A stretch of DNA of 64,000 bases from Mesotaenium endlicherianum (lineage: Eukaryota): positions 80,166-144,165 of the forward strand of contig WELA01003469.1 of the NCBI GenBank assembly GCA_009602735.1, in the 5' to 3' direction. The translations under genes and the position numbers were made by a program. Under the pieces are notes generated by a model. It saw nothing but the letters and a program-made list of their open reading frames with translations. It had not been told where the DNA came from and did no database searches. Positions within the stretch are counted from its first letter, which is position 1. The number at the start of each line of letters is the position of its first letter. Shown here piece after piece: positions 1 through 46,114 of this stretch.

Positions 1-1644
1 AACATGGGCTACCCTCTAATATAATCTTAGACAGGGACTCGAAATTTACCTCTAAGTTCTGGAGGGCTTTAATGGGGTTAATGGAAGTCAAGCAGCTGCT
101 CAGCACAGCAAACCACCCTCAGACTGATGGGCAGACTAACCGAGTCCTGCAAGAAGTACTGAAATCTTATATTAACCAAAAACAAGATAATTGGGATGAC
201 GTGTTACCCCAAATCCAATTTGCGGTCAACAGTGCGGTGCACGCGTCAACGGGCAAGACTCCTTTTGAACTAAGCCTGGGTAGGATCCCTAAGTCTCCTT
301 TGGATGTCTTAGGGGAGTCTTTAACTCACCCTCAAGGGACTGACAATCCGGTCTCCCTCCAGTTAACTCAGGAGTTTGCTGACACCCTGTCAGAAGTCCA
401 ACAAAACTTGCACAAAGCCCAAGAAAACCAACTAAAGTATGCTAATCAGCACCGTCGAGAACAAACCTTTTCTAAGGGCAATTTGGTCAAACTGCATTCT
501 CAGCACCTGTACCTCCCTGGCGTGGTCAAGAAAAAGCTTGGTCCTGTTTGGGTCATTCCATATTCGGTGGTGCGCCGTGTCGGTCAGATCACTTACAAAC
601 TGAACATGTCAACAGAATACAAGGGTCACCCGGTCTTTAATGTTTCCTTCCTTGAACCCTACATCAAAGGGGACACACTGTTCACAGGTCGGTTACCTGT
701 CCAACCGAAACCGATCCTCGCTGTCCGGGACGGTGACCCTGAGGAATTTGAGGTTGAGGAGATTTTAGACGCGCGCTCGGTCCGTCGATCGTCTAAATAT
801 GTCATGAAGTACCTCATTCGATGGAAGGGTTAGGATGCCTCTGGGGACATTTGGGAATTTAAGGACCATTTGACCAATGCCAAAGGGGCGTTGAAACGGT
901 TCCATCTTCGGGCGACTGGAGCCCCTCCATAACTGTCAATTCAGTTGACACGGGAAGGTTCTAGGCGGACCTGTCTCCATTTAAGTTGGAGGGGAAAATA
1001 TATGACAGTTAGTGTGCGAGAGCGAGAAAGGAACAGTTATGTAAACCCTAAGTGTCAGCATAGTGACAGATGGGACAGCCTGGCCAACATAACGCACCTT
1101 GGGCAGAAGGAAAATGGGCCTCACACAGCAATACATCACTTAACGCACCTTCAAACACATTCATATGTTTATGTATAGTGCACCGCAACTACGTCAACTC
1201 TTAGCAATCACTTGCTAAGGTAAACAGAGGCAAATCCACCATACTAATACGAACATACTTCCTGCCTGCAATTCCTATGACAAAGGTCGATATCCTACTA
1301 ACTTGTGCCCTGGTTACATGTGCAGAATGGCTTTCACCACACACAAGGAGGACAGAAAGCGCAAGGCAGAAGAAGCCAGGAGGACAATGGAGCAATACCT
1401 GAAGGAGCTGGCGGCGACGTCCCTCACCAAGAGAGAACAAGAAAGGGTCCGCAGACAACAAGAGGCGGCAGAAGAAGCACAGAGAAAGAAGGATCGAGAA
1501 GCGGAAAATCTCAGGAAAGCTGAGGAGGAGAGACAGAAGAAACAACAAGAAGAAGCGGCAGCGGCAGAGGAGGAGAGAAGGAAAAAGGCTGTAGCGGACA
1601 GGCAGAAGAGCTTGGCCACTTACGGGTATACTGTGGTGGGTGGC
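1..1644 (+). mobile_element. Family A chromovirus, older host copy, left part (integrase-chromodomain end, spacer, ORF3a N-terminus); interrupted by a nested copy at 1645
   Basis: ORF 72-833 is the integrase C-terminus (HPQTDGQ, GPY/F-like, chromodomain EVEEILD..YLIRWKG). 930-1644 parallels 7690-8380. Continues at 10588 across TSD GTGGC. Confidence 0.93.
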
Positions 1645-2365
1645 TGTAATGAATCAGTATATTAGTAGATATAATATTCATTTAGATGTAATAGTAAATT
1701 AAGTTCAACCTGCTGAACTTTAGTTAAATTATCAGTTTGCTGGACTTTATATTTAATAACAGTTTAATGACTCAGACGGATGCAGCAGGCTGAAGTCAAC
1801 TTAAGTCAGCTTGCTGACACATTCTTTGACAGCGAGCTGACTTCCGTACTCGGTAGCAGCGAACTGCCTCATATGCATTTAAGTGTGGTAGGCTAGATGA
1901 ATGGCCAGATGACATCCCTATGATGGATGGCCATTCGGGATGATGGGAGATGGCGGTGGATTTGGTTAATCGAGGTCCTACCAACGTGGTTAACTCCCGG
2001 GTAGGCGGTGCCATCGCATTGACCGTTGAACAGTAAACTCATTCCATGTACATACGCTAGGCATTGCTCTCGAGTTCGGCATTCGGAAACGAGGCCAACT
2101 CTCTTGTACAGCTTACCGAGAGAGATCCGAATCCAAGGCGAGAAGCCATTGATACGCACTGTCTTCTAACCTTGCTTATGTATGAGTTTACTGATTTGCA
2201 TTATTGATGCTAGTTTACTCGCATTTGACTTACGAGTATTATTCACTGCTAGTGTGTTGTCCTTTGCCGTTAAACCGATTAACGAAAAATACCATGAAGA
2301 TTACTTGCTGATATGAAGATCTTTATTAACTGTTAATCGCCTATTTGGTAAGTCGATTCATTTAA
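1645..2365 (+). repeat. 5' LTR, family A
   Basis: Starts TGTAATGAATC and ends GATTCATTTAA (CA mutated); followed by the PBS. Confidence 0.95.
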
Positions 2366-2366
2366 G

Positions 2367-2378
2367 TGGTATCGGAGC
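2367..2378 (+). promoter_or_regulatory. Primer binding site, tRNA-iMet type (TGGTATCGGAGC)
   Basis: 1 nt after the LTR; one mismatch from the canonical plant TGGTATCAGAGC. Confidence 0.92.
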
Positions 2379-2399: not shown

Positions 2400-3877
2400 A
2401 TGGTAAGGACAAGGTCTCAAACTAGCAACTCCCGAGACATGGAGAACCATGATAACGAGAATGTCGAAAACCAGGCGGAAAGCCATGAAGCGGGAAACGT
2501 ACCTGTTCTGAAGCAGTAGCAGATACTGCAGCTAGGGAGGCTGCAGATGAGGCAGCTGCCATTGCGGCAGTCGCACCATAGCAAGCTGAGGAGGAGAGAG
2601 CCAGGCTAGAAGCTGAACAATTAGCAAAGGCCGCTGAAGATACAGAAAGGAGGGAAAGACAGCCAGCTGACGAGCGCACTGTCGAGGAACTTATGGCATC
2701 AAGGGCCAATATTCCGAAACCACCTCCTGCTGTACAACTCAATGTACCTCTAGGTCAAATACGTGACCGGCTGAATGCGGCAGGAATTGCTGCTGCAGGA
2801 GCGAGAGGGATTGTTGAGGACACTACTCAGCGAGTGGATGCCAATGCTGCTGCTGCAATTTCTAATCTACCACCCTAGAGTGTAGACTTGGGAGCATTGT
2901 TCGTTCAAATGCAGTCGCAAATGGCGACCATGTATCAGTCCCAACAGGAGGACAAAAGAATCATAATGTCCCTACTCCGGGACAGAGACCAACTGGGGTC
3001 TCACACCACTAGTGGTGGTGGCCGAGGGCCTAGTAAGCCCAAGCCAAAACCTCCCCAGGATTATGACCCTGAGGGAAACAGAAAATATTACCTGATCAAG
3101 TTTCTCGCGGATGTTGAGCAGTGGCTCGAGAACTACCCAGAACTGCAAGATTACGAGAAGGTCAGGCACACCGGTGCGCTACTGAAAGGCAGTGCCGCAG
3201 ACTGGTGGCTTTACTGGAAGGAAGAGCGTAAGGCTCGGCAACTCGGTGACCCTACGTGGGTAGAGTTTGTCGAGAAGTTGCATGAGAAGTTTGATGTCAT
3301 CAACCAGCAGGAGAAAGCTATCTATGCGATGATCTCCCTGACACTGAAGCAGACCACTTCAGTTGCTGAGTTTGCTCAAAAGTTCCAAGAGAACATGATG
3401 AAGCAGCCTGATTTGCCAGAACGGTATAGGATAGCATACTTCAGGTATGGCTTGAAATCCGAGGTCTCTGGTCATTTTGCTGAGAAAAAGTATGAGAAAC
3501 TGGCTGACTTGATCCAGGATGCTGACGCCTGGGATCAGCAGCAGTTCAATCACAAGCGCCAGAGTAATGCTTTGGTGTCTAAGATTGTCAAAAAGCCCCA
3601 CGGTTCCTACAATGCAGTTGAAGGAGACCAGGCTGAGGATAATCAGGGTGATGAATACAAGTATGAGTACAATGCTATTCAGTCTAGAGGTAGAGGTGGT
3701 TCCTCTCGAGGCGGCTATGAAAGAGGTGGTGGTAAGACTAAGCCGAGACCAGCCTCAGCAAAATTCACTTGCTACCATTGTCAGCAGTTGGGCCACTACA
3801 GAGAACAGTGTCCACTCAAGCACCTTCCGAAGGTCGAGAGAAAAGACCAGCCTTTAAAAGACAGCAACAGTCAGTAA
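2400..3877 (+). pseudogene. gag: gag (MVRTRSQ..., capsid-like domain, CCHC knuckle [14 protein letters not shown]), with premature stops
   Basis: Matches the intact 492-aa gag at 59583-61061; in-frame TAG near 2579 and 2876. Confidence 0.92.
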
Positions 3878-3894
3878 TCCAGTCTACTGACTGT
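3853..3894 (+). promoter_or_regulatory. -1 ribosomal frameshift signal: T TTA AAA heptamer, 7-nt spacer, 10-bp hairpin
   Basis: Heptamer is in gag frame at 3853-3859; stem ACAGTCAGTA/TACTGACTGT at 3867-3894; pol lies in the -1 frame overlapping the gag end. Confidence 0.82.
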
Positions 3895-6800
3895 GAGGAT
3901 GCTAGAGATAGTGAGTCGTCACTAGCTGCCCTCGTAGCAGGTATTATGGGTCCTGCAAAACTGAATTCACTATGCATGCCTGACAAACAGATAAAGGAGA
4001 CCATCAGCAATATGGACGTCCAGAGAGTGCACACTCTGGATGCTCTTGTTCCACCTGATGTCCAACATTTCTTTGCTACGTCAGGAGAACAATGCGAAAG
4101 TCAGGAAAAGACAGTCCCCCCTATCCTACTGCATTGCATGATTGCAGGTAGGAAGGTGAGGGCATTTGTTGACGGAGGGGCGTCACATACTTTTATCCAC
4201 AAGGACTTAGTTAAGCGGCTAAGGCTGCCTACTGTCACCCAAGGGAATAGAAAAATATTCCTTGGAGATGCCTCAAGTATCCCGGGAGGAGTTATAACCA
4301 AGCCTATTGAGGTCCAGTTAGGTTCTGGCATTGCAGTTCTAACTGAAACGCTTACATTTGAGGTACTCAACACTGGCTTTTATGATCTCGTGCTAGGCAG
4401 GTCCTGGCTTAATAGACATCAAGCTGAAGTGTGTTGGAGCAGAGGTACAGTTAAAGTGAGAGGAGCCAGTGATGGGCAGACTGACTTGGCACCCACCAGT
4501 GCTCTTCCTCTTGTCCTGTGTGGATGGCAAATGAAGGAAAAGAAGAGGCTTCCAGAAGGATGCAAGTTGCTGAATGCAATGGAGTTTGTCAAAAGCTGGA
4601 ACCAGAAGGAAGACCGAATGTTCTGTCTGCTGCTAAGAGAGGTACCTCCTCAACCTGGAGAAGTGGTTGAGAAAAAGGTAAGCCCTCCAGAGCACCCTAC
4701 AGCTGCAAAAATTGTTGCTCAGTACACTGATGTATTTAATATGCCTCCAGGACTACCCTCTAAGAGGGAAATAGATCATAGGATTGATTTATTACCTGGT
4801 AGTCAGCCACCCTGGCAACGCACATATGGCTTGTCTTATGTGAAGAGCGAGGAGTTGAAAACACAGATTGCAGAGCTTGAGGAAAACGGTTATATTTCTC
4901 CCAGTAAATCACTTTACGGCGCACCCATCCTATTTGTTAAGAAAAAGGATGGCAGTATGCGGATGTGTGTGGATTACAGAGCCCTGAACAGAATTACAGT
5001 AAAGAACAAGTATGCTTTACCCAGAATCGAGGACTTGCTTGATACTCTGTCTGGTGCTAAGGTGTTCAGTAAGATAGATCTCAAGAGTGGTTATCAGCAA
5101 ATCAGAATTGCTGAGGGGGATGAACACAAGACTGCATTCCGTACATGTTATGGACACTATGAGTTCAACGTGATGCCATTTGAACTGACTAATGCTCCTG
5201 CTACCTTCATGGGTGCTATGAATGACATTTTCAGACCTTATTTGGATAAGTTTGTGCAAGTCTTCCTGGTTGGTATTTTAATGTTCTCTGAAGATGAATC
5301 GCAGCACACTGAACTCTTAAAGACTGTACTAGACACTCTGCGGAAAAATCACTTATATGCTAAAATGAGCAAGTGTGATTTCTTTAAGGAAAGTACTGAA
5401 TTCATAGGCGACGTTGTCAGTAAAGAGGGCATCAGTGTGGATCCTAAGAAAGTCCAGACCATAAGGGACCGGCCAGTACCACAGTCTGTCTCTGAAGTTA
5501 GATCCTTCCTCGGGTTGGCTAACTACTATAGGAGATTTATTGAGAATTATTCCACAAAGGCCAGTAAACTGACTGACCTTACTAAGAAGGACATAGGGTA
5601 TGTGTGGGGGGAAGAGCAGCAGGCTGCCTTCCAGACCCTTAAAGATGCCCTTTGTTCTACCCCAGTGCTAGCCGTGTATGACCCAAGCAAACCGGTGCAG
5701 GTGGTGACTGATGCCTCTGACTTTGCCATGGGTGCTATTTTGTTGCAGCCTGCTGACAAAACCACAAAGGATGGTAAGGTACGGCAGGAGTGGCATCCTG
5801 TGTTGTATGAGTCTATGAAATTTAATCCAGCGGAGATTAATTACTCAGTGCATGATAAAGAGCTGCTAGCTATCATTCATGTACTCAAACAGTGGAGAGC
5901 ATACTTACATGGTAAAGCTTTTAAGGTGATTGCAGATCATCTAGCTCTGACCCACTTTCAGAAGAAGTCCAAGCTGTCGAGGAGGGAGAACCGNCGGGAG
6001 AAGCGCTGGAGCCAGATGCTGGAGCAGTTCCAAGTCCAGATCGACTACAAACCAGGGAACTTGGATCCTGCTGATGCACTTTCTAGAAGACCTGACTTGC
6101 AAGAAAGGAACTTTAGTCAGCATGCTGTAGACAAAGTCCTGTGTGCACTGACTTCACTAAAGGTGAAAAAGTCCTTCCTAGAACAACTTAGGAAAGCCTA
6201 CCTTTCTGACCCAACATTTGAGCCCAGCCCCACTACTGGTGTGTGTCGTGCTACTGCACTCGGGTATAAGCTTAAGGGAGGGGTCTGGGTGACTGAAGCC
6301 ACTTCAGGCAGGCTGAAGCTGGTCGTTCCTAATAACGTGGAAATAAGGTCCCTTTTATTGAGTCAAGCACATGACAGTTTACTGGGTGGGCATTTGGGGC
6401 AGGCCAAAACTGTTGGCAAACTGGCAAAACATTATCATTGGGAGGGATTACCTCGGGAGGTCTTGAAATACGTAAAGTCCTGTGACCAGTGTCAAAAGAA
6501 TAAGTCTAGGCACACACCACCGAGGGGCCTCTTACAACCGCTGCCCATCCCAACTGGCCGCTGGGAAACGATATCGATGGATTGGGTGGTCACACTGCCA
6601 CGAACTGCTAATAGGCATGATTCGATACTGGTAGTCGTGGATAAACTGACAAAAATGGTCATTTTTATCCCCACAACTGTCAAAGTAACTGCACTCGAAA
6701 CAGCGAGGCAGTTCTACAACCATGTAGTATGCCAACATGGGCTCCCTTCTAATATCATCTCAGACAGAGACTCAAAATTCACCTCTAATTTCTGGAGAGC

Positions 6801-7688
6801 TTTAATGGGGTTAATGGGAGTCAAACAGCTTCTCAGCACAGCCAACCACCCTCAGACTGCTGGGCAGACTGAAAGAACTAACCGAGTTTCGCAGGAGGTG
6901 CTGAGAGCCTATATTAACCAAAAACAAGATCATTGGGATGACCTGTTTCCTCAAATTCAGTTCGCGGTCAACAGTGCGGTGCACGCGCAACGGGCAAGAC
7001 TCCTTTTGAACTCAGCCTCGGTAGAGTCCCTAAGTCTCCTTTAGATGTACTGGGGGCGTCTTTAACTGACCCTGAAGGGATTGACAACCCGGTCTCCCTC
7101 CAGTTAACTCAGGAGTTTGCTGACACCCTGTCAGAAGTCCAACAAAACCTGCACAAAGCCCAAGAAAACCAACTAAAATACGCTAATCAACACCGCCGGG
7201 CGCTGACATTTTCCAAGGGCGATTTAGTCAAACTGCATTCTCAGCACCTGTACCTCTCGGGCGTGGTCAAGAAAAAGCTTGGTCCTGTCTGGGTCGATCC
7301 ATATTCGGTGGTACGTCGTGTCGGTGAGAATGCTTACAATCTGAATATGTCAACCGAAGACAAGGGTCACCCTGTCTTTAATGTCTCCTTCCTGGAACCA
7401 TACATCAAAGGTGATACACTGTTCACAGGTCGGTTACCTGTCCAACCGGGACCGGTCCCCGCTGTCCGGGACGGCGATCCTCAAGAATATGAGGTCGATG
7501 AAATTTTAGACGCCCGCTCGGTCCGTCGATCGTCTAAATATGTCATGAAGTACCTCATTCGATGGAAAGGTTACGATGCCTCTGGGGACACTTGGGAATT
7601 TAAAGACCATTTGACAAATGCCAAAGGGGCGTTGAAACGGTTCCACCTTCGGGCGGCTGGACACCTCCCTAACAGTCATTTCAGTTGA
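3853..7688 (+). pseudogene. pol: pol: aspartic protease (FVDGGAS), RT, RNase H (TDASD), integrase (HHCC, DDE), chromodomain; damaged
   Basis: ORFs 3769-7044 and 7263-7688; frameshift near 6988; RT catalytic motif mutated to FLVG. Confidence 0.95.
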
Positions 7689-7959
7689 CACGGGAAGGTG
7701 ACAGGAGGTCCCGTCTCCATTTAAGTCGGAGGGGAAAATATATGACAGTTAGTGTGCGAGAGTGCGAAAGGGACGGTTATGTGAATCCTACGTGTCAGCA
7801 TAGTGACATAGGGGACAGCCTGGCCCACATAAAGCACCTTTGGCTGAACGAAAAAGGGCCTCGCACAGCAATACATCACTTAACCCACCTGAAAACACAT
7901 TCATACGTTTATGTCTGGCGCACCGCAACTACGTCAACTCCTAGCAATCACCCTGTAAG

Positions 7960-8064
7960 GTAAACAGGAACGAATATACCATAGTAACATGAACTTACTC
8001 TCTCCTGCAACTCCTATGACAAAGGTCAATATCCTACTAACTTGTGCCCTGGTCACATGTGCAG
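7960..8064 (+). promoter_or_regulatory. Predicted 105-nt 5'-UTR intron of ORF3a
   Basis: AAG|GTAAAC donor, TACTAAC branch point at 8035-8041, TGCAG| acceptor 1 nt before ATG 8066; same signals at 1220-1325. Confidence 0.7.
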
Positions 8065-8065
8065 A

Positions 8066-9752
8066 ATGGCTCCCACCACACAAAAGGAGGACAGAACGCG
8101 CAAGGCAGAAGAAGCCAGGAGGACAATGGAGCAATACCAGAAGGAGCTGGCGGCGACGTCCCTCACCAGGAGAGAACAAGAAAGGGTCCGCAGACAACAA
8201 GAGGCGGCAGAAGAGGCACAAAGGAAGAAGGATCAGGAAGCAGAAAACCTCAGAAAAGCTGAGGAGGAGAGACAGAAGAAACAACAAGAGGAAGCAGCAG
8301 CGGCAGAGGAGGAGAGAAGGAAAAAGATTGAAGCGGACAGACAGAAGAGCTTGGCCACTTACAGATATACTGTGGTGGGTGGCCAAAACTTTGATAACCT
8401 GAAGGAAGCTTTGCTGGCAGCCCAGGAAATCAACAAGCTGGAACAGACAACACTGCTACAGGGGGAAGGAGCTGCAGCACTGGACAGGTACATCGAGACA
8501 CACACCGGCGTGGTCCTTTACAAAGATTATGCTAAGATGGTGGGCTATACAGCAGAGCAGGCCCGGTATCTCGCAGATGATTTAGAGGACAAGCCGGTCC
8601 CCATACCGGGAATAGTGGGAGATCAGGGACTCATCCGGATGGTGAGCATGCGGCCCGATAGCTTCAAGGATACTGTATTCTACCTCACATTACTGCCAGC
8701 TTACAATGAGGTTGAGAGAAGGAGCTGGGAGTACTTGGCCAAGGAAGCAGGACAGCAGATGTTCTCTCCTCACTGGTTCCCGTGTAAACTGAGGAAGGCT
8801 GAGCACGGACCCCAGTACTACCAGCAGCCAACAGACTGGAGGTGGATGACCGTCACAAATAAGAAGCAGGAGTGTGACCGAGCCCAACCGGATGACTTCC
8901 ACTATGGCCTAGACGGCTATCTCATCCTACCACCTCACATTGCCCCTTGGGACCCCAGGCTGAATGGATGCCTGAGCAATATGAATGCAGAGACCAAGGA
9001 ACATAGGAGGAGGGGAAGAGACTACTTCTCTAAGGGAAAGCATACCTTCGTCAAATGGGCGAAGAATGCAGGCCGGATAGATATCAGCAGGCTGAAGGCC
9101 AAGCAACCTCCAGCGCGCCCTAAGAAAGGGAGGTCGGTAGACTACTCCATGTCCACTAGGGAGCAGAACGATTTAGTGGACGAGACTCCTACTCTCTTCG
9201 AGGAGGATGAGGAAGAAGAACAGGGCAGAGGAGAAGCATCAGCAGCGGGTACTCAGGAGACTTAGGGGCAGGCAGGGGCACTTCCTAAAGAACCACGATC
9301 AGGTATTTGGAACGTGATCCCTGTCATGGAGGCAACTGGACCCCGCACTTGCTCCCCCAGCCCTCCTGCCCAAGCAGGGGAAGAAGCTGATTTGACTGTA
9401 CTTGGCAGCAGACACAGGCAGAAATCCTCAGAGGACAGGGGTGCCAGAAGAGGGACCCGCGGGGTGGCCAGAGGTATGCCGGCCTCTCCCTTCGCTCAGG
9501 GGCATGTACCTCTTGCCAATGTGTTTCAGCATCCTACTGGAATGCCTGTCTATGTGGGGATCAACACCCAAGTGGGTGAAGAGCAGGCTACCATCCTTTG
9601 TTCTCCTCGCGGTCTAACTTTAGAGCAAACNCGGTCTAACTTTAGAGCAAACGGGGTTCTTTAGAAGGCCAGCTGACAGACCTAGAGGGCTGTCCAGATC
9701 CAGGTCCAGAACTCCGTCTCCTGATCATGAAGCCCCAGCAACAACCCCCTAG
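8066..9752 (+). CDS. ORF3a: extra retrotransposon gene of unknown function (~555 aa consensus; coiled coil, W/H/C-rich core, acidic tract, conserved C-terminal motifs)
   Basis: ORFs 8042-9265 and 9314- are in frame across one TAG; assembly duplication at N9631; homologs at 1327-1644/10593-11954 and 40326-41987. Confidence 0.85.
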
Positions 9753-9852
9753 GCAAAAGGCTGAAGGAGCAGTCACTAGGAGAGGCGGGTCAGGTCCAGT
9801 TTGCTGAATAGCAGATCTTGAAGTTTAATGTTGTCGAGGCGACAACAAGTTA

Positions 9853-9864
9853 AGTTAGAGGGAT
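9853..9864 (+). promoter_or_regulatory. Polypurine tract, preceded by hairpin GTTGTCG-AGG-CGACAAC
   Basis: AGTTAGAGGGAT directly upstream of the 3' LTR; the equivalent site is seen on - at 40241-40252. Confidence 0.8.
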
Positions 9865-10587
9865 TGTAATGAATCACTATATTAGTAATTATAATATTCA
9901 TTTAGATGTAATAGTAAATTAAGTTCAGCCTGCTGAACTTTAGTTAAATAATCAGTTTGCTGGACTTTATATTTAATAACAGTTTAATGACTCAGACGGA
10001 TGCAGCAGGCTGAAGTCAACTTAAGTCAGCTTGCTGACACATTCTTTGACAGCCAGCTGACTTCCGTACTCGGTAGCAGCGAACTGCCTCATATGCATTT
10101 AAGTGTGGTAGGCTAGATGAATGGCCAGATGACATCCCTATGATGGATGGCAATTTGGGATGATGGGAGATGGCGGTGAATTTGGTTAACCGAGGTCCTA
10201 CCAACGTGGTTAACTCTCGGGTAGGCGGTGCCATCGCACTGACCTTTGAACAGTAAAACTCATTCCATGTACATATGCTAGGCATTGCTCTCGAGTTCGG
10301 CATTCGGAAACGAGGCCAACTCTCTTGTACAGCTTACCGAGAGAGATCCGAATCCAAGGCGAGAAGCCATTGATACGCACTGTCTTCTAACCTTGCTTAT
10401 GTATGAGTTTACTAATCTGCATTATTGATGCTAGTTTACTCGCATTTGACTGACGAGTATTACTCACTGCTAGTGTGTTGTCCTTTGCCGTTAAACCAGT
10501 TAACGAAAAAATACCATAAAGATTACTTGTTGATATAAAGATCTTTTTTAATTGTTAATCGCCTATTTGGTAAGTCGATTAATTTCA
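9865..10587 (+). repeat. 3' LTR, family A
   Basis: TGTAATGAATC...ATTTCA, followed by TSD GTGGC. Confidence 0.96.
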
Positions 10588-11959
10588 GTGGCCAAAACTA
10601 TGATAACCTAAAGGAAGCATTGTTGGCAGCCCAGGAGATCAACAAGCTGGAACAGACAACACTGCTACAGAGGGAAGGAGCTGCAGCACTGGATAGGTAC
10701 ATCGAGACACACACGGGTGTGGTCCTCTACGAAGATTATGTCAAGATGGTAGGTTATACAGCAGAGTGGGCCCGGTACCTTGCAGATAATTCAGAGGACA
10801 AGCCGGTCCCATTACTGGGAATAGTGGGAGATAAGAGACTCATCAGGATGGTGAGCATGCGGCCCGATAGCTTTAAGGATACGGTATTCTACCTCACACT
10901 ACTGCCAGCTTACAATGAATTTGAGAGAAGGAGCTGGGAGTACTTGGCCAGGGAAGCAGGACAGCAGATGTTCTCTCCCCACTGGTTCCCGTGTAAACTG
11001 AGGAAGGCTGAGCAGGGACCCCAGTACTACCAGCAGCCAACAGACTGGAGGTGGATGACCGTCACAAATAAGGAGCAGGAGTGTGACCGAGCCCAACCAG
11101 ATGACTTCCACTCTGGCCTAGACGCCTATCTCATCCTACCATCTCACATTGCCCTTTGGGACCCCAGGCTGAATGGCTGCCTGAGCAATATGAATGCCGA
11201 GACCAAGGAGCATAGGAGGAGGGGAAGAGACTACTTCTCTAAGGGAAAGCATGTTTTCGTCAAACGGGCAAAGAATGCAGGCCGGATAGATATCAGCAGG
11301 CTGAAGGCCAAGCAACCTCCGGCGCGCCCTAAGAAAGGGAGGTCAGTAGACTACTCCATGTCTGCCAGGGAGCAGGACGACTTAGTGGATAAGACTCCTA
11401 CCCTCTCAGAGGAGGAAGATGAGGAGGATGAGGAAGAAGAACAAAGCAGAGGAGAAACATCATGATGTGGTATTTAGGACACCCAGGGGCAGGCGAGAGC
11501 AGGGCTTCCACAGGAGCCTAGATCAGGAATATGGCATCTGACCCCGACCGTGGAGGTAACTGAACCGCGCACTCGCTCCCCCAGCCCACCTGCCCAAGCA
11601 GGGGAAGAAGCTGACCTGACTGTACTTGGCAGCAGACAAAGGCAGAATTCCCCAGAGGACAGGGGTGCCAGAAGAGGGACACGCGGGGTGGCCAGAGGTA
11701 TGCCGGCCTCTCCCTTCGCTCAGGGGCATGTACCTCTTGCCAATGTATTTCAGCACCCTACTGGAATGCCTGTCTATGTGGGGATTAACACCCAAGTGGT
11801 TGAAGAGCAGGCTACTATCCTTCATTCTCCTCGAGGTCCAACTTTAGAACAAACGGGGTTCTTTAGAAGGCCAGCTGACAGACCTAGAGGGCTGTCCAGA
11901 TTTAGGTCCAGATCTCAGTCTCCTGATCCTGAAGCCCCAGGAACAACCCCCTAGGTGAC
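10588..11959 (+). pseudogene. Right part of the host copy: remainder of ORF3a (stops near 11465; ends 11954), then truncated
   Basis: Frame resumes ..GG|QNYDNLKEALLAAQ, matching 8380 onward. Confidence 0.9.
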
Positions 11960-16394: not shown

Positions 16395-17590
16395 CTTCTT
16401 CAAGATCATTATATTTCATTTATGTATATGAGATCAGAGATAGGTGGAAGCGTGTAAAATCAGGGAGCGATCTTTGCCCTTATAATGAATTCCATTTACT
16501 CATCTATACCCCTTAAGTCACTTACCGTAGTGCGCCATAATTGCACACTAACACAAGGCACAAGAAAGAGGCGAACTTGAGGACTAGAGCTTCTCCTTCA
16601 GAAACTCATGGCCTCTTGTCTACCACGCATACAAGGATGTATAAGCACATACACAACATCAGAGGGTTCAATGGCAAAGGCGCTCTCATTCACATGACCA
16701 TAAAGTAGCTAAAACACATCCCACTGACTTAGGTGCAAAACCATGGAATCTGTTCGCTATGTGACCCCCAGATGTCAGAGGGCATAACTTTGTCAATACG
16801 ACTCCAAATTGAGCAAACTCAACGGCAACGAACGCATCTTTACGAGACCTTTTTAAAAACTTCTAGTTTACTCCATTTAGAGCACAGACAAAGGAGCCAT
16901 CTCAATTTTCGTGGAAGCTGGTCATAATAACGAACCCAAAAGTGCACACATGACTTGCAAGTAGAAATCCGACTGTAAAGCCTACTGTCCAGAATGAGGG
17001 ACCTCGAGATCCAGTCTGCTATGTACCTAGTGACCACTTGGTTGACCACGGCGCAAGGTGCGCCATTTTATGGGAAACCCGTTAAGTTGGGACCCACGGA
17101 TGTAGGTATAACGACCATATTGATTGGTCGGTTGATTGAAGTCCTAACTGTTCAATTGACTGACGACGGCTCCGCCTACCTGGGAGTTAACCACATTGGT
17201 AGGACATCGGTTTACCGAATCTCAGTCAACCTCCCGACTTTCAGTATACTACGGTCACATGTGGCAATCTATAAATAATTATTCAAATGAATATATGTAT
17301 CCTCAGCGTACTGAATCCAAGTATACTGACTAATGTATACGAGCTTACTATAGATCAACCTACTGATGTTATGTCCTATATATATACAAATAGTCTTAGC
17401 AAACTATGCTCTAATACAAAATGTCATCCTGCTGACCGTTTTGACAAAGTCAGCAAATTGCTCTATGATACAAAAGTCATCCTGCTTACCTTTTTGATAA
17501 AGTAAGTAAACTCGCATTATATCGATACATATTTATTTCGATGAACTCGCACACGTGAGTATATTGACACATTACTTATTTAATGATGTA
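16395..17590 (-). repeat. Family B LTR, both termini missing
   Basis: Colinear with 20570-21700 over ~1.1 kb. Confidence 0.85.
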
Positions 17591-18441
17591 TGTGTATGTT
17601 CATCATTCGAGTAGCTGGGAAGCTAACCAACGCTGCCTATCATCTTCACCAGAACAAGTATGGTCAAATGGAACTTCATATACTGGAGTCCTTCAAATGA
17701 CCAAGATCGTCGTGAGCGTCAGTGCAACCTTGGCGAATGAGGCGAGGCAAGCAATCAAAAGTTCGCAGACTCTGGAGGGTCTGGAAAGACTATATGCCTG
17801 GACCTGACTTTCAAAAGGCACAACGAGGTGGAAGAGAAAGGGCGTCAAGAAGCCGACGCAAAGCTGACTAATGAAGAACGCAAGATGATGACAGTCTGCT
17901 TAACTGCTGGAATAATTACCAGGCAAATCACGAATCAGCTCCTTGAGTGTAATGAATCAATATATTGGTAGATATAATATTCACTTAAATATAATAGTCA
18001 ATTAAGTTCAGCTTGCAGAACTTCAGCAAATATATGCCGGACTTTATATAATTACCAGTTTAATGACTCAGTCGAGAGCAGCAGGCTGAAGTCAACTTAG
18101 GTCAACTTGCTGACACATTCTTTGACAGCCAGCTGACATCCGTACTCGGTAGCAGCGAACTGCCTAGATATGCATCTAAGTGTGGTGTGCTAGATGAATC
18201 GCCAGATGACATCCTTAGGATGGATGGCGATTCGGGATGATGGCAGACGGCGGTGGATTTGGTTAACCGAGGTCCTACCAATGTGCTTAACTCCCGGGTA
18301 GGCGGTGCCATCGCACTTGCCGCTGGACAGTAAACTCATTTCATGTACATAGGCTAGACATTGCTCTCAAGTTTGGCATTTAAAAACGAGGCCAACTCTC
18401 TTGTACTGCTTACTGTTAGATATCTGAATTTAAGGCGAGAA

Positions 18442-37299: not shown

Positions 37300-37374
<75 letters not shown>

Positions 37375-39519: not shown

Positions 39520-40325
39520 TGAAATGAATCGACTTACCAAATAGGCGATTAACAACTAATAAAGATCTTTATATCAGCAAGTAATCTTCATGGAAATTTC
39601 TGTTAACTGGTTAAACGGCAAAGGACAACACACTAGCAGTAAATAATACTCGTAAGTCAAATGCGAGTAAACTAGCATCAATAATGCAAATCAGTAAACT
39701 CATACATAAGCAAGATTAGAAGACACTGCATATCAATGGCTTCTCGCCTTGGATTCAGATCGCTCTCAGTAAGCTGTACAAGAGAGTTGGCCTCGTTTCC
39801 GAATACCGAACTCGAGAGCAATGCCTAGCATATGTACATGGAATGAGTTTACTGTTCAACGGTCAGTGCGATGGCACCGCCTACCCGGGAGTTAACCACG
39901 TTGGTAGGACCTCGGTTAACCAAATCCACCGCCATCTCCCATCATCCCGAATAGCCATCCATCATAGGGATGTCATCTGGCCATTCATCTAGCATACCAC
40001 ACTTAAGATGCATATCGAGGCAGTTCGCTGCTACCGAGTACGGAAGTCAGCTGGCTGTCAAAGAATGTGTCAGCAAGCTGACTTAAGGTGACCTCAGCCT
40101 GCTACTTCGGGCCGAGTCATTAACTGATATTAAATATAAAGTCCAGCAGACTGATCATTAACTAGAGTTCAGCAGGCTAAACTTATATAACTATATTATT
40201 TAAATGAATATTATGTCAACCAATATACTGATTCATTACAATCCCTCCAACTTATCATGTTGTCGCCTCGACAATACTAACACAAATAACAGCGTGCTGT
40301 CCCTTCCGTCCCCATCCTGCTGCTA

Positions 40326-41987
40326 TTAGGAGGGAGATGTCCCTGAGGTTCTATACTCAGGGGAGCCAGACCTCCTCCTGTCTTGGGGTCTTTTGAAGCC
40401 TGTCAGAGAGGGAGGTTCCGTGTAAGGACCCCGCGGAGAACACAGTAACTGGGCTGTTTCCTCCTGCACAGTCTGGAGGGAGGCAGCCTTCTCCTGGGCA
40501 GCCCTCAAACTGACAGGTACGTATACCGGCATCCCAGAAGGATGTTGCATGACATGAGCCAAGGGTACATGCCCTTTCTGCGAGGGAGATGCTGGCAGGC
40601 CTCTGGCTATCTCCCGAGCAGCCCTCCTGTCTGCCCTGTCTGACTGGGTCTCCTTGCCTGGAGATGGGGTCTGTCCTCTGGCAGTCCCCAGCCAAGTGAT
40701 ATCCTCCTCTTCAGCGAGTTGCTGCATGGCCAACCCCGTCTTCTCCCTTATAGGGGATGTGGCAGGCGTCAGGATCACGGCGGGGCTAGTGTCCTCCTCC
40801 TCGCCTTCCTCCTCGTCTTCCTCTGACTCCTCCTCCTCTCCGTCCCCGGGTTCCTCTGAGACTTCTGGGGTCTCTTTTGTCAGCTGCTCCAGCTCTTCCC
40901 GAGAAAAAGAATATCCTATTGACCGTCCCCTTTTGGGTGTTGGTGGGGGCTGCTGAGCCCGGACCGCATAGAGGTCCTTTTCCCCCTGCTTACTTGCCCA
41001 TTTGGCATAAGCGTGCTTCCCTTTGGAGAATGACTCTCGGGCCCTGCTTCTGTCCCCCTGCATCTCCTGGCTCATGCAGTCTCTGACTCCATCCAATCTT
41101 GGGTCCCAAGCCGCAATGTGAGGGGGCAATACTATGTTCCCCTTTAGGTCTGTCAGGAAATCCTCATCCGTCGCCCTGTCATTCTGCTGGTCCCTCATGT
41201 TGATGGTCATCCACCGCCAATCGGTGGGCTTTTGGAAGAAGGCAGGGTCTGTCCTTTTAAGAGTACAAGGGTACCAGTGCCCTGCAAAGTCCAGCTGACT
41301 GGTTTCCCTGGCCACGAATTCCCAGCTCCTCCTCTCCACCTCGTTGTACATGGCCTTGAACCTGTTATGGGGTGTTGAGTCCTTGAAGCTGTCCGCGTCC
41401 ATGGGGATCATCCTGATGACCCTATCTGCCCCCCAGATACCAGGAATCGAGACAGCTCCTGCTTCGTTTACCTGGGCCATTGCCTTGGCCTATCCGATCG
41501 TATATCCTACCATCCTGGCGTAATCGTGGTAGAGGAGGAGCCCTGTGTTGACCTCGATATACTTGTCAAAGTTTTTGGATGTCTCCCCTTCCTTTTGGAG
41601 GATTTCCTTCTGCGACTCACTGCGACTTCTCAGGGCATACTTGAAGGCCTCCTCCAGTAGATCAAAGCCCTTGCCCAGCACTGTGTAGCGATAGCTGCTG
41701 ACTCTCCTCTGTTCTTCTTCTTCAGCCTGCTGCTTCCGCTTCTCCTCAGCTTGCCTCTTCTCCTCTGCTTTCTTGGCCTCCTCTGCAACTTTTTTGTCCA
41801 TTTCTTCCTGCCTCAGTCTGGCCTGTTCCTCCTCCTCCTTCTTCTTCTGTGCCTCCCGCTGTTGTTGGAGTCGATCTGATTCTCGAGCGGTGATGGAAGA
41901 TGATTCAATGTCTCCACGGAATTGCAAGTATTCTGCATGTGCCTCTTCCGCCCTTCTCTTTCTCTTGAGTTCCGACTTTTGAGTCAT
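40326..41987 (-). CDS. ORF3b: divergent variant of the extra gene (~550 aa; one in-frame TAG at 41490-41492)
   Basis: ORFs 41490-41996 and 40326-41480 are in frame; shares YNEVERRSWE, HW.PC.L, PTDWRWMT, LPPHIA.WDPRL, FSKGKH, GHVPLA and QHP.GMPVYV with ORF3a. Confidence 0.85.
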
Positions 41988-41988
41988 C

Positions 41989-42096
41989 CTGCTCAATCAT
42001 AAACACAATGCAGTTAGTGAAGTCATGATATTTTGCCGCTACTGAGTGCCCTTGATGAAGAGGGACGCGATCGGGAGAGTTCCTAGAGTGGCATAC
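41989..42096 (-). promoter_or_regulatory. Predicted 108-nt 5'-UTR intron of ORF3b
   Basis: CAG|GTATGC donor, CACTAAC branch point at 42019-42013, AGCAG| acceptor 1 nt before ATG 41987. Confidence 0.7.
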
Positions 42097-42304
42097 CTGG
42101 TGTGAGCGAATATAAGGATAAATTGAGTTGGAGAGCAAGTGAGTGTGAGCGCACGTTGAGTGTGTAATATGGTGATCGAAGACTACCACTCCCTCCAACT
42201 TAAGGTGGGCTGCCTGTCACAACGGTCACTAACTGTCACATCCCCCTCCAACTTATATGGAGACAGGACCTCCTCTCACCTTCCCGTGTCAACTGAAATG
42301 ATTG

Positions 42305-45300
42305 TTAGGGAGGTGCCCCAGCCGCCCGAAGGTGGAACCGTTTCAACGCCCCTTTGGCATTGGTCAGCTGATCTTTAAATTCCCAAGTGTCCCCAGAGGC
42401 ATAGTAACCCTTCCATCGAATGAGGTACTTCATGACATATTTAGACGATCGACGGACCGAGTGAGCGTCTAAAATCTCATCGACCTCATATTCCTCAGGG
42501 TCGCCGTCCCAGACAGCGGGGACCGGTCCCGGTTGGACAGGTAACCGACATGTGAACAGTGTATCACCTTTGATGTATGGTTCCAGGAAGGAGACATTAA
42601 AGACCGGGTGACCCTTGTATTCGGCTGACATGTTCAGTTTGTAAGCATTTTGACCGCTACGACGTACCACCGAATATGGACCGACCCAGACAGGGCCAAG
42701 CTTTTTCTTGACCACACCAGGGAGGTACAGGTGCTCAGAATGCAATTTGACTAAATCCCCCTTGGAAAATGTCAGTTCACGACGGTGTTGATTAGCGTAT
42801 TTTTGTTGGTTATCTTGGGCCTTGTGCAAGTTTCGTTGGACTTCTGACAGGGTGTCAGCAAACTCCTGAGTTAACTGGAGGGAGACCCGATTGTCAATCC
42901 CTTCAGGGTGAGTTAAAGACTCTCCTAGAACATCTAGAGGGGACTTAGGGACCCTACCCAGGTTGAGTTCAAAAGGAGTCTTGCCCGTTGACGCGTGCAC
43001 CGCACTGTTGACCGCAAACTGAATTTGAGGCAACAGGTCATCCCAATTATCTTGTTTTTGGTTAATATATGCTCTCAGCACCTCCTGCGAAACTGGGTTA
43101 GTTCTTTCAGTCTGCCCATCAGTCTGAGGGTGGTTTGTTGTGTTGAGCATCTGTTTGACTCCCATTAACCCCATTAAAGCTCTCCCAAACTTAGAGGTGA
43201 ATTTTGAGTCTCTGTCTGAGATGATATTAGGAGGGAGCCCGTGTTGGCATACTACATGGTTGTAAAACTGTCTCGCTGTTTCAAGGGCAGTCACTTTGAC
43301 AGTTGTGGGGATAAAAATGACCATTTTTGTCAGTTTATCCACGACTACCAGTATTGAATCATGCCCGTTGGCAGTTCTTGGTAGTGAGACCACCCAGTCC
43401 ATGGATATAGTTTCCCAGCGTCCCGCTGGGATGGGTAGCGGTTGCAAGAGACCTCCGGGTGGTGTGTGCCGAGACTTATTTCTCTGACACTGGTCACAGG
43501 ACTTGACATATTTCAAGACCTCCCGGGGTAACCCCTCCCAATGATAATGTTTTGCCAGTTTGCCAACAGTTTTGGCCTGCCCCAAATGTCCACCCAGGAG
43601 ACTGTCATGAGCTTGACTCAGTAAGAGAGACCTTATTTCCAAGTTATTAGGAATGACCAGCTTCAGCCTGCCTGAAGTGGTTTCAGTCACCCAGACCCCT
43701 CCCTTGAGCTTATACCCGAGTGCAGTAGCACGACACACACCAGTAGTGGGGCTGGGCTCAAATGTTGGGTCAGAAAGGTAGGCTTTCCTAAGTTGTTCAA
43801 GGAAGGACTTTTTCACCTTTAGTGAAGTGAGTGCACACAGGACTTTATCTACAGTATGCTGACTAAAGTTCCTTTCTTGCAAGTCAGGTCTTCTAGAGAG
43901 TGCATCAGCAGGATTCAACTTCCCTGGTTTGTAGTCGATCTGGACTTGGAACTGCTCCAGCATCTGGCTCCAGCGGTTCTCCCTCCTCGACAGCTTGGAC
44001 TTCTTCTGAAAGTGGGTCAGAGCTAGATGATCTGTAATCACCTTAAAAGCTTTACCATGTAAGTATGCTCTCCACTGTTTGAGTACATGAATGATAGCTA
44101 GCAGCTCTTTATCATGCACTGAGTAATTAATCTCCGCTGGATTAAATTTCATAGACTCATACAACACAGGATGCCACTCCTGCCGTACCTTACCATCCTT
44201 TGTGGTTTTGTCAGCAGGCTGCAACAAAATAGCACCCATGGCAAAGTCAGAGGCATCAGTAACCACCTGCACCGGTTTGCTGGGGTCATACACGGCTAGC
44301 ACTGGGGCAGAACAAAGGGCATCTTTAAGGGTCTGGAAGGCAGCCTGCTGCTCTTCCCCCCACACATACCCGATGTCTTTCTTAGTAAGGTCAGTCAGTT
44401 TACTGGCCTTTGTGGAATAATTCTCAATAAATCTCCTATAGTAGTTAGCCAACCCGAGGAAGGATCTAACTTCAGAGACAGACTGTGGGACTGGCCAGTC
44501 CCTTATGGTCTGGACTTTCTTAGGATCCACGCTGATGCCCTCTTTACTGACAACGTGGCCTAAGAATTCAATACTTTCCTTAAAGAAATCACACTTGCTC
44601 ATTTTAGCATACAAGTGATTTTTCCGCAGAGTGTCGAGCACTTTCTTTAAGTGTTCAGTGAACTGAGCTTCATCTTTAGAGAAAATTAAAATATCATCCT
44701 GGAAAACTTGCACAAACTTGTCCAAATAAGGTCTGAAAATGTCATTCATAGCACCCATAAAGGTAGCAGGAGCATTAGTGAGTCCAAATGGCATCACGTT
44801 GAACTCATAGTGTCCATAACGTGTGCGGAAAGCAGTCTTGTGTTCATCCCCCTCAGCAATTCTGATTTGATGATAACCACTCTTGAGATCTATCTTACTG
44901 AACACCTTAGCGCCAGACAGGGTATCAAGCAAGTCCTCGATTCTGGGTAAAGCATACTTGTTCTTTACTGTAATTCTGTTCAGGGCTCTGTAATCCACAC
45001 ACATCCGCATACTGCCATCCTTTTTCTTAACAAATAGGATAGGTGCGCCGTACGGTGATTTACTGGGAGAAATGTAACCATTTTCCTCCAGCTCTGCAAT
45101 CTGTGTTTTCAACTCCTCACTCTCCAAATAAGACAAGCCATACGTGCGTTGCCAGGGTGGCTGGCTACCAGGTAATAAATCAATCCTATGATCTACTTCC
45201 CGCTTAGGGGGTAGTCCTGGAGGCATATTAAACACATCCGTGTACTGAGCAACAATGTTTGCAGCAGTAGGGTGTTCCGGAGGGTGTACCATTCTCTCAA

Positions 45301-46114
45301 CCACTTCTTCAGGTTGAGGAGGTACCTCCCTTAGCAGCAGACAGAACATTCTGTCTTCCTTCTGGTTCCAGCTTTTGACGAACTCCATTGCATTCAGCAA
45401 CTTGCATCCTTCTGGAAGCCTCTTCTTTTCCTTCATTTGCCATCCACACAGGACAAGAGGAAGAGCACTGGTGGGTGCCAAGTCAGTCTGCCCATCACTG
45501 GCTCCTCTCACTTTAACTGTACCTCTGCTCCAACACACTTCAGCTTGATGTCTATTAAGCCAGGACCTGCCTAGCACGAGATCATAAAAGCCAGTGTTGA
45601 GTACCTCAAATGTAAGCGTTTCAGTTAGAACTGCAATGCCAGAACCTAACTGGACCTCAATAGGCTTGGTTATAACTCCTCCCGGGATACTTGAGGCATC
45701 TCCAAGGAATATTTTTCTATTCCCTTGGGTGACAGTAGGCAGCCTTAGCCGCTTAACTAAGTCCTTGTGAATAAAAGTATGTGACGCCCCTCCGTCAACA
45801 AATGCCCTCACCTTCCTACCTGCAATCATGCAATGCAGTAGGATAGGAGGGACTGTCTTTTCCTAACTTTCGCATTGTTCTCCTGACGTAGCAAAGAAAT
45901 GTTAGACATCAGGTGGAACAAGAGCATCCAGAGTGTGCACTCTCTGGACGTCTATATTACTGATGGTCTCCTTTATCTGTTTGTCAGGCATGCATAGTGA
46001 ATCCAGTTCAGCAGGACCCATAATACCTGCTACGAGGGCAGCTAGTGACGACTCACTATCTCTAGCATCCTCACAGTCAGTAGACTGGATTACTGACTGT
46101 TGCTGTCTTTTAAA
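42305..46114 (-). pseudogene. pol: pol (PR-RT-RH-INT-chromodomain), nearly intact
   Basis: 1174-aa ORF; one TAG near 45864 upstream of the protease; slippery heptamer at 46114-46108. Confidence 0.95.

What the first reader, a model, noticed from the sequence alone, without database searches (positions are those of the whole stretch)
7690..9864. Chromovirus carrying a third, ~550-aa gene of no recognisable family (ORF3)
Seen: a long sense ORF lies between the chromodomain end of pol and the PPT in three copies. It has an E/K/R/Q coiled coil, a ~200-aa aromatic/His/Cys core (YNEVERRSWE, HWFPCKL, PTDWRWMT, LPPHIAPWDPRL, FSKGKH), an acidic tract and conserved C-terminal blocks (ARGxPASP, GHVPLAxVxQHPxGMPVYV, SPRGP). 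It has no obvious signal peptide or TM helix, so it does not look like env. Known: extra 3' ORFs are typical of Athila, Tat/Ogre and SIRE elements and unusual in chromoviruses. Inference: a dedicated accessory protein, for example an anti-silencing, targeting or RNP factor. I cannot assign a function.
Basis: partly seen in the sequence, partly recalled or inferred. Interest (0 to 1): 0.9.

Follow-up and report, generated by a model that had tools for sequence, protein, structure and literature searches.

The report
Retrotransposon with two swappable accessory genes
A chromovirus-type jumping gene carries, behind its usual genes, a third gene of about 555 codons that matches no protein found in our searches, shows the marks of selection, and comes in two very different versions on nearly the same backbone; it is predicted to be read from its own spliced RNA and likely makes a nuclear helper protein that would let the element's unspliced full-length RNA leave the nucleus.

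Summary
ORF3 is real, but no copy here is intact. Each of the three copies has 1-2 premature stops, at different places. Copy B and the piece at 1327-1644 are one gene, split by element A. Read through with X, the frame is 553-559 codons. dN/dS is 0.25-0.35, like pol (0.23-0.29). No transmembrane helix, signal peptide, family hit, homologue or usable fold was found. (2) Both types have a donor, ACTAAC branch point and acceptor (105-108 nt) ending one base before the start codon. (3) A duplicate polypurine tract marks the cassette's left edge. Expression is not shown: type A has no polyA reads, type C a few sense reads in 1 of 3 runs, and no splice joints were seen. Best reading (35%): a nuclear CERV/Rev-like export factor; anti-silencing is nearly as likely. 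Sense extra ORFs are a known kind (18% of Tekay chromoviruses). The scan noted similar extra genes in other genomes, none alike in sequence. Verdict: new variant of a known kind.

The parts
1..932 (+). 3' end of pol (integrase, chromodomain) of element E1, the host of the nest
   Evidence: 88.7% to 6734-8383; sequence
982..996 (+). duplicate PPT right after pol, E1
   Evidence: pattern hit
1220..1325 (+). predicted 106-nt intron before ORF3, E1 (type A)
   Evidence: donor, ACTAAC, acceptor; splicing not observed
1327..1644 (+). ORF3 of E1, 5' piece, cut by insertion of element A
   Evidence: 91% aa to A; target duplication GTGGC
1645..2365 (+). 5' LTR of element A; holds a consensus-like donor G|GTAAGT at 2348
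   Evidence: 3.7% from the 3' LTR; donor scan
2367..2377 (+). primer binding site TGGTATC..., tRNA-Met type (label recalled)
2400..3877 (+). gag of element A (one premature stop)
   Evidence: Ty3_capsid, Retrotrans_gag, zf-CCHC on the sister copy 59535-61058
3742..7688 (+). pol of element A (PR-RT-RH-IN-chromodomain), with frameshifts
   Evidence: domains on sister copy 42308-45862
7722..7737 (+). duplicate PPT after pol; left edge of the exchanged cassette
7755..9824 (+). type A cassette: spacer, predicted intron, ORF3; about 60-69% nt to type C, against 86-97% in the flanks
   Evidence: sliding alignment, blastn limits
7960..8064 (+). predicted 105-nt intron (AAG|GTAAAC ... ACTAAC ... GCAG|), ends one base before the ATG
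   Evidence: 1-2 nt indels at 7988-8002 in a public contig
8066..9752 (+). ORF3, type A, about 554 aa: basic N-terminus, charged helix (to about aa 95), core (about 95-370), basic then acidic tract, conserved C-terminal blocks, R/S-rich tail; stop at 9263, duplication at about 9610-9652
9829..9847 (+). 8-bp hairpin just before the PPT, shared by both cassette types
9851..9864 (+). working PPT of element A
   Evidence: abuts the 3' LTR
9865..10587 (+). 3' LTR of element A
10593..11954 (+). ORF3 of E1, 3' piece (copy B), stops at 11463 and 11475; cut at its end by an inverted LTR piece
39520..40240 (-). 3' LTR of the type C element
   Evidence: 3.2% from LTR 51285-52016, target duplication ATTGT
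40241..40254 (-). working PPT, type C element
40326..41987 (-). ORF3, type C, 553 aa, one stop at 41492-41490
41989..42096 (-). predicted 108-nt intron (CAG|GTATGC ... ACTAAC ... GCAG|), ends one base before the ATG
   Evidence: splicing not observed
42188..42255 (-). two duplicate PPTs after pol, type C
42305..45862 (-). pol of the type C element, 1185 aa stop to stop
   Evidence: Pfam RVT_1, RT_RNaseH, Integrase_H2C2, SH3_Tf2-1, Chromo
52576..52766 (-). element D: type C spacer with both duplicate PPTs, then no ORF3; likeness to C stops at the predicted donor

Best explanation
ORF3 is a selected accessory gene of this chromovirus family that sits in an exchanged cassette, is predicted to be read from its own spliced mRNA, and likely encodes a nuclear, non-membrane regulator that would let the intron-keeping full-length RNA leave the nucleus, in the manner of CERV or Rev. 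Shown: coding frame, purifying selection, two cassette types on one backbone, splice-signal pattern, no hydrophobic segments. Inferred (my odds): the gene is functional in active copies 0.95; the 105-108 nt intron or its acceptor is used 0.8; the transcript starts in the spacer rather than the LTR 0.55; nuclear and nucleic-acid-binding 0.7; acts on RNA export rather than chromatin about 0.35 overall. How it would work: a short spliced mRNA removes the upstream ATGs and makes ORF3. The protein enters the nucleus by its basic N-terminus, oligomerises through the charged helix and binds element RNA with the basic end of the core. Genomic RNA that still holds the splice signals is then exported for Gag-Pol synthesis and packaging. 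If the RNA target lies in the cassette, protein and target travel together, which would explain why whole cassettes are exchanged.
For: Selection: dN/dS 0.25, 0.32, 0.35 at kappa 1, 3, 5 over 512 codons (bootstrap 0.16-0.49), against 0.23-0.29 for pol in three pairs; all four regions are below 0.45 for A versus E1. ORF indels listed in two public runs are multiples of three (3 and 9 in X11; 6, 3, 3 in X12), while 1-2 nt indels fall in the predicted intron (5 indel rows not shown). CpG observed/expected is 0.39-0.43, like pol (0.41), so ORF3 is a long-term resident. Cassette exchange: synonymous sites are near saturation between types (pS 0.60-0.76), against dS 0.11-0.12 in pol and 7% in the LTRs; both types sit in elements with LTR pairs 3.2-3.7% apart. 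Splice pattern: donor + ACTAAC + YAG-N-ATG occurs 3 times on both strands of the window, each at an ORF3 start; mean 0.0 in 60 Markov simulations (branch + acceptor + ATG alone 0.25). The two intron types do not align better than shuffles (21 of 300), and a host gene in the window has CTGAC-type branch candidates. The intron holds the three nearest upstream ATGs in both types. Protein: basic clusters (KRKRR at 8 in C; KKGR/KRGR at about 352), net charge +7 to +10 then -11 to -20 per 40 aa, 6-12 S/T-P sites, no N-glycosylation sequons. All three copies keep the intron, so unspliced RNA was packaged. Precedent: CERV is encoded in the env position of the gypsy element Cer1, comes from a spliced mRNA, has an NLS and a leucine-zipper motif, and is needed for genomic RNA export (PMC10309623, abstract and passages).
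Against: No homology to CERV, Rev or any family was found. No splice joint in 3 of 3 polyA runs. Type A has zero depth over 7947-9590 in 3 of 3 runs (4,352 million letters read, 6-12% of each run), while parts of pol and the LTR have reads. Type C has sense-oriented depth of 4.5-8 over 41339-41659 in X23 only, with 5 molecules ending at one place, so perhaps few molecules. The splice pattern was defined after seeing the sequences, and rests on two independent types. The introns show no stable structure (z +1.13, +0.75). Element D has the type C spacer and no ORF3. Most chromoviruses export their RNA without such a gene (general knowledge). Nothing here separates export from anti-silencing directly.
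Confidence: 0.35

Rival explanations
1. ORF3 is a nuclear anti-silencing or trans-activating factor (VANC-like in role). Made from its own promoter, it would reopen the LTR after the chromodomain has placed new copies in heterochromatin; the two types would be products of an arms race with host silencing.
For: Acidic tract, charged helix and basic clusters; chromodomain with the three cage aromatics by eye; copies nested in each other; CpG depletion; two deeply diverged types mobile at similar times. VANC21 is predicted to dimerise by a coiled coil, and accessory TE proteins evolve faster (PMC13547354 passages).
Against: No Pfam hit to PMD, Transposase_28 or other listed accessory domains at E 0.1 (list). 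No 8-mer is shared by the two spacers, and no tandem target motif was seen in spacer or LTR (a weak test). dN/dS within type A equals pol, with no sign of positive selection. It does not explain why the intron is kept.
Confidence: 0.28
2. ORF3 is a particle or integration-complex component: it helps nuclear import, target choice or packaging, possibly as a spliced Gag-ORF3 fusion.
For: A donor-like CAG|GTATGG at gag codon 348 is in the phase that would fuse Gag to ORF3 in frame; CERV is such a Gag-linked spliced product; basic clusters.
Against: One in three donors has that phase by chance, and the site is fixed by Gag coding. ORF3 keeps its own ATG one base after the acceptor in both types, with a local donor 105-108 nt upstream. 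Targeting is already served by the chromodomain.
Confidence: 0.15
3. ORF3 is an enzyme or host-directed effector of unknown fold (for example a nuclease, an RNA-silencing suppressor or a cell-to-cell movement factor), as with the enzymatic ORF3s of bdelloid LTR elements.
For: The core keeps W, H, D, R and Y blocks between types (115 invariant columns of 275), as folded catalytic domains do. Bdelloid LTR elements carry GDSL esterase and DEDDy exonuclease ORF3s (PMC5408684 abstract).
Against: No enzyme family hit; with two types only, invariant residues cannot single out an active site.
Confidence: 0.15
4. ORF3 is an env-like membrane protein.
For: Position, orientation and a splice acceptor before the start match env and plant env-like ORFs (PMC7264820).
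Against: Maximum 19-residue hydropathy 0.81-0.88, no signal peptide, 0 sequons in 3 of 3 copies.
Confidence: 0.02
5. ORF3 is a captured host gene or nested element riding along without function; the low dN/dS is inherited from its earlier life.
For: A duplicate PPT followed by TG at the left edge looks like an old element end with later capture; all three copies are broken; almost no RNA.
Against: dN/dS is 0.25-0.35 between A and E1, which diverged inside the element (dS 0.17-0.22). Both types keep length, motifs and splice signals at saturated synonymous distance. No cellular homologue in 1.84 billion representatives.
Confidence: 0.05

Closest known systems
[quoted passage not shown]
   Same: Position, orientation, length over 250 codons, presence in several copies, no clear homology, function unknown.
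   Different: No transmembrane segment, so not env-like; none of the domains listed for Athila, Ogre or Retand; host element has a cage-type chromodomain and a tRNA-type PBS; two exchanged cassette types with a predicted 5' intron.
CERV of Cer1 (C. elegans gypsy element; PMC10309623)
   Same: Non-env ORF in the env position, spliced mRNA (predicted here), NLS-like basic motif, helical dimerisation motif, phosphorylatable S/T-P sites, no homologues outside the lineage.
   Different: CERV takes its N-terminal half from the gag region; ORF3 has its own ATG. No sequence likeness was found, and export activity is untested here.
Tekay chromoviruses with forward 3' extra ORFs (18% in REXdb)
   Same: Chromovirus with a sense ORF after pol and a tRNA-Met-type PBS.
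   Different: Tekay is a seed-plant clade. In a quick RT-RH tree this element stays outside the well supported clade that holds 13 of 14 angiosperm rows.
Grande gene23 (maize) and Retand TRP28 ORFs
   Same: [quoted passage not shown]
   Different: Those are antisense and in non-chromoviruses; no Transposase_28 hit here.
VANC anti-silencing proteins of VANDAL DNA transposons
   Same: TE-encoded accessory protein with a predicted coiled coil and fast family-level divergence.
   Different: DNA transposon; MAIN-like fold proposed; no match found here.

Membership tests
Chromovirus (Ty3/gypsy) | pol order PR-RT-RH-IN | tested here: met
   Pfam on 42308-45862
Chromovirus (Ty3/gypsy) | chromodomain at the integrase C-terminus | tested here: met
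   PF00385 E 7.8e-08, residues 1125-1177
Chromovirus (Ty3/gypsy) | LTRs TG...CA, PBS, PPT, 5-bp target duplication | tested here: met
   (GTGGC; ATTGT)
Tcn1 clade | self-priming instead of a tRNA PBS (83% of members; 5% tRNA-Met) | tested here: not met
   TGGTATC PBS after the LTR; figures
Tcn1 clade | gag and pol in overlapping frames; aromatic cage in the chromodomain | tested here: met
   gag frame ends 61061, pol frame opens 61016; cage residues read by eye, positions recalled
Named chromovirus clades (Tcn1, Chlamyvir, Galadriel, Reina, Tekay, CRM) | placement in the RT-RH-INT tree with reference members | tested here: inconclusive
   quick tree of 65 rows, no clade-labelled references; no starred set holds the element; best identity 61%
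aORF-3S / eORF-3'F | [quoted passage not shown] | tested here: met
   425 and 387 codons stop to stop; 553-559 read through with X
aORF-3S / eORF-3'F | in most copies of the family and conserved like gag-pol, not a one-off transduction | tested here: met
   3 of the 4 copies whose post-pol region is in the window; dN/dS like pol; present in contigs of X11 and X12
env / env-like | signal peptide and transmembrane helix | tested here: not met
env / env-like | spliced subgenomic mRNA | tested here: inconclusive
   signals present; no joint in reads at depth near or below 1
Known plant extra-ORF domains (Athila ORF-1, PMD, Transposase_28, DUF390, DUF601, DUF1204, DUF1633) | profile match | tested here: not met
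   no such hit at E 0.1 in 6 ORF3 pieces; list
CERV / Rev-like export factors | sequence or fold homology | tested here: inconclusive
   no hit; no direct pairwise test; models too poor
CERV / Rev-like export factors | nuclear localisation, binding and export of unspliced RNA | not testable with these tools
   only sequence hints
VANC-like anti-silencing | sequence-specific binding of repeated motifs in the element, with demethylation | not testable with these tools
   no shared 8-mer between spacers, a weak proxy

The most novel reading that the evidence does not exclude
One chromovirus family runs a complex-retrovirus-style regulatory gene as two interchangeable alleles: an intron-bearing transcription unit, bounded by a duplicated polypurine tract, that encodes a new-fold nuclear protein which switches the element's own RNA on or exports it, with both cassette types kept side by side and swapped onto a common gag-pol-LTR backbone by template switching under host pressure.
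Probability: 0.2. Interest if true: 0.8.

Novelty: new variant of a known kind. Interest (0 to 1): 0.52.

Why it matters
What the extra ORFs of plant LTR retrotransposons do is an open question (PMC7264820). Most are too diverged, or sit in elements too large, to dissect. This family offers a natural experiment: two versions of one accessory gene, 47% identical, on almost the same backbone, plus an ORF3-less copy. Conserved residues, a predicted start and a predicted intron are already marked out. If ORF3 exports or de-represses element RNA, it would extend Rev/CERV-type or VANC-type control to chromoviruses, and add a protein family for which we found no relative in 1.84 billion cluster representatives. 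If it is only another lineage-specific extra ORF, it adds one more group to the 314 counted for Ty3/gypsy.

Tried and rejected
Homologue searches were all blank. Word search, type A core: 0 of 1,609 candidates, lengths 221-704 only. phmmer of the type C piece against 1.84 billion representatives: 1 hit at E 1.5e-4, a 1,739-aa repeat/helicase-like protein scored from 6 weak stretches, rejected as spurious. The type A piece and the N-terminal 165 aa were not run in that library. PDB sequences 0. NCBIfam and PHROGs gave only weak charged-helix or chance hits. Pfam DUF6462 and Borrelia_P83 were below cut-off. DNA scans: metagenomes 0 of 269 and 0 of 587 stretches, viral 0 of 47, prokaryote genomes 0 of 52. 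The ESM Atlas gave no answer. No whole genome is held, so copy number, intact copies and host homologues could not be checked.

Structure: two AlphaFold2 models from 3-row alignments had pLDDT 39.7 and 36.2. These say nothing about the fold. No complex was predicted, as the alignments are too shallow.

RNA: no RNA holder was listed for 7900-9860. The peak at 40697-40910 is cross-mapping of other genes on the acidic repeat (loose ends on both sides) and was discarded. X11 is labelled 'RNA?' but covers 30 of 30 bins flatly, so I treat it as DNA-like. The polyA runs share only a species label with the best DNA holder, and only 9 of 922 laid reads were 99% or more alike.

Splicing from the gag-start donor (ATG|GT) was rejected because it puts ORF3 out of frame. 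Rfam gave 0 hits. The ORF at 12682-13542 is unrelated to ORF3. The host ORF at 30639-31577 found no homologue, so the host lineage stays an inference. Paper searches listed no description of this ORF. The library lacks most subscription papers, and the per-element REXdb table (MOESM1) was too large to read; it may list such ORFs in non-seed-plant chromoviruses.

Full report
Setting. The window is a nest of decayed copies of one Ty3/gypsy family. The LTR is about 720 bp, a TGGTATC primer site follows it, gag has a capsid domain and zinc knuckle, and pol runs PR-RT-RH-IN-chromodomain. No whole genome is held. The host is a eukaryote with spliceosomal introns (RNase PH exon). RT-RH is 44-53% identical to angiosperm hits, 47-52% to Closterium, 43-44% to two fungal hits and at most 61% to unnamed environmental proteins. 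The chromodomain keeps the cage aromatics by eye, which in plants is limited to non-seed lineages (PMC6317226 passages). A non-seed green organism is my inference, not a result. A quick tree of 65 rows (64 of the 120 listed hits plus the element) does not place it in any supported set.

Observation. None is intact. Copy A (8066-9752) has a stop at 9263 and a duplication around an N at 9631. Copy C (41987-40326) has one stop. Copy B has two, and B with 1327-1644 is one gene of element E1, split by element A with the target duplication GTGGC. The stops are at different positions, so the frame was 553-559 codons in the active family. A fourth copy, D, has the spacer but no ORF3.

It is a gene. 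Between A and E1, differences fall 35/26/68 on the three codon positions (p 1e-5). dN/dS over 512 codons is 0.25-0.35 depending on kappa, with bootstrap limits 0.16-0.49; pol gives 0.23-0.29 in three pairs and gag 0.23. These are pairwise counts on dead copies, which pushes the ratio towards 1. In contigs of two public runs under different organism labels, the listed indels inside ORF3 are multiples of three, while 1-2 nt indels lie just upstream in the predicted intron. CpG depletion equals that of pol.

Two cassettes. A and C are 47% identical in protein (232 of 496), with synonymous sites near saturation. In 200-nt bins the DNA is 60-69% identical from about 7835 to 9834, and 86-97% on both sides; blastn puts the limits at 7754 and 9825. 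At the integrase end, A and E1 (both type A) are no closer (dS 0.32) than either is to C (0.24, 0.28). LTR pairs of the A and C elements differ by 3.7% and 3.2%, so both types moved at similar times. Synonymous sites cannot diverge ten times faster in one block without exchange, so the region is a cassette moved between backbones, most simply by template switching (inference). Its left edge follows a duplicate PPT (two in type C); its right edge is a shared hairpin and the working PPT.

How it is probably read. Each start codon is preceded by YAG plus one base, with ACTAAC 23-24 nt upstream and a MAG|GTA donor giving an intron of 105, 106 or 108 nt. The full pattern occurs three times in the window, only at ORF3 starts; simulations give a mean of 0.0 in 60. 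The A and C introns do not align better than shuffles, so the signals are kept while the rest is not. The pattern was defined after the fact and rests on two independent types. Splicing would remove the three nearest upstream ATGs. The acceptor could also be joined to the donor at the end of the LTR (2348) or to a gag donor at codon 348 that is in frame. Reads do not settle this. In three polyA runs, type A has no depth over 7947-9590. Type C has sense-oriented depth of 4.5-8 over about 320 nt in one run, about 2.5 or less elsewhere outside a cross-mapping peak, and no joints. Gag and pol are also nearly silent in these samples, so the family is mostly off and the test is weak.

The protein. 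Basic N-terminus, about 80 residues of charged helix, a core of about 270 residues with 115 invariant columns of 275, a basic patch, an acidic tract, two conserved C-terminal blocks and an R/S-rich tail with S/T-P sites. There is no transmembrane segment, signal peptide or sequon. No family or homologue was found. Two structure models were unusable, so fold searches carry no weight and the fold is unknown rather than new.

Mechanism. The anatomy points to a nuclear, trans-acting regulator. I commit to a CERV/Rev-like role (0.35). It is the one experimentally defined case I found of a non-env ORF in the env position of a gypsy element, made by splicing, with an NLS and a dimer helix (PMC10309623 abstract and passages). 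It also fits an element whose genomic RNA must keep strong splice signals, as all three copies do. Anti-silencing or trans-activation is close behind (0.28), then a particle or integration role (0.15), an unknown enzyme or effector (0.15), a passenger (0.05) and env (0.02). None of these was tested directly.

Comparison with what is known. Sense ORFs after pol are a described class of unknown function (PMC7264820, parts 1-2 of 3; PMC11963269 passages). REXdb counts 3,372 Ty3/gypsy elements with extra ORFs in 314 unrelated groups. Its summary table gives 18% forward 3' ORFs for Tekay and none for Tcn1, Chlamyvir, Galadriel, Reina or CRM (the Athila row looks shifted by one column, so the columns need care; the per-element table could not be read). 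Different ORF3 types shared among retroelements are known from rotifers (PMC5408684 abstract). PMC13547354, PMC12859917 and PMC7197481 were seen as passages only. Seven paper searches listed nothing on this ORF. Earlier notes of this scan report extra sense ORFs in chromoviruses or gypsy elements of other genomes (unchecked); none is alike in sequence.

Verdict. This is a new variant of a known kind: an orphan accessory protein, unusual for its chromovirus type, in two exchanged cassettes with a predicted 5' intron. Function and expression are unproven. Interest 0.52.

Noticed in passing
window 52576-52766 (minus): Element D matches type C up to exactly the predicted donor (42096 equivalent), then has 20 nt of other sequence and enters the LTR about 55 nt from its start. 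ORF3 and the working PPT are missing. It does not look like a spliced cDNA; the coincidence is unexplained.
   Followed up: partly
window 982, 7722, 42255, 42202, 52766, 52706: Copies of the PPT directly after pol, followed by TG as at an LTR start. They are either the relic 3' end of an ORF3-less ancestor or working central PPTs, as described for EVADE (PMC7197481 passages).
   Followed up: partly
window 9829-9847 and about 40258-40276: An 8-bp hairpin just upstream of the working PPT is kept in both cassette types.
   Followed up: partly
window 6577-7946 and 41981-42700: PolyA reads over the pol end and the type C spacer are mostly antisense to the element if the libraries follow the usual stranded convention; possibly read-through from a host promoter.
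   Followed up: no
window 5994 and 9631: Single Ns flanked by 12- and 21-nt duplications look like assembly joins; the 12-nt one is absent from a public contig.
   Followed up: partly
window 39520-52016 (minus): One target duplication (ATTGT) encloses LTR-gag-partial pol-LTR-gag-pol-ORF3-LTR, a three-LTR or nested structure of 12.5 kb.
   Followed up: no
window about 33000-37400 (minus): Host gene with an RNase PH exon (E 2.8e-5), likely an exosome subunit (Rrp43-like label recalled), with long GC-rich introns and CTGAC branch candidates.
   Followed up: partly
window 30639-31580: GC-rich 313-codon ORF with GTGVFLP and LPSEWVY motifs that recall a plant family (from memory); no homologue at E 0.001, no Pfam hit.
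   Followed up: partly
window 57387-58704: Decayed piggyBac-like transposase (DDE_Tnp_1_7, zf-Tnp_2).
   Followed up: no
window 12564-15430: A second, decayed gypsy element: PBS at 12564, Integrase_H2C2 at about 14100, chromodomain-like peptide at about 15113.
   Followed up: no
window 16395-22627: A third LTR element: direct repeats 16395-17461 and 20570-21624 (87%), with an RT/RNase H fragment at 22157-22627.
   Followed up: no
window 1701-1720: Near-palindrome AAGTTCA.C..GCTGAACTT in U3 of the LTR, a possible dimer binding site.
   Followed up: no
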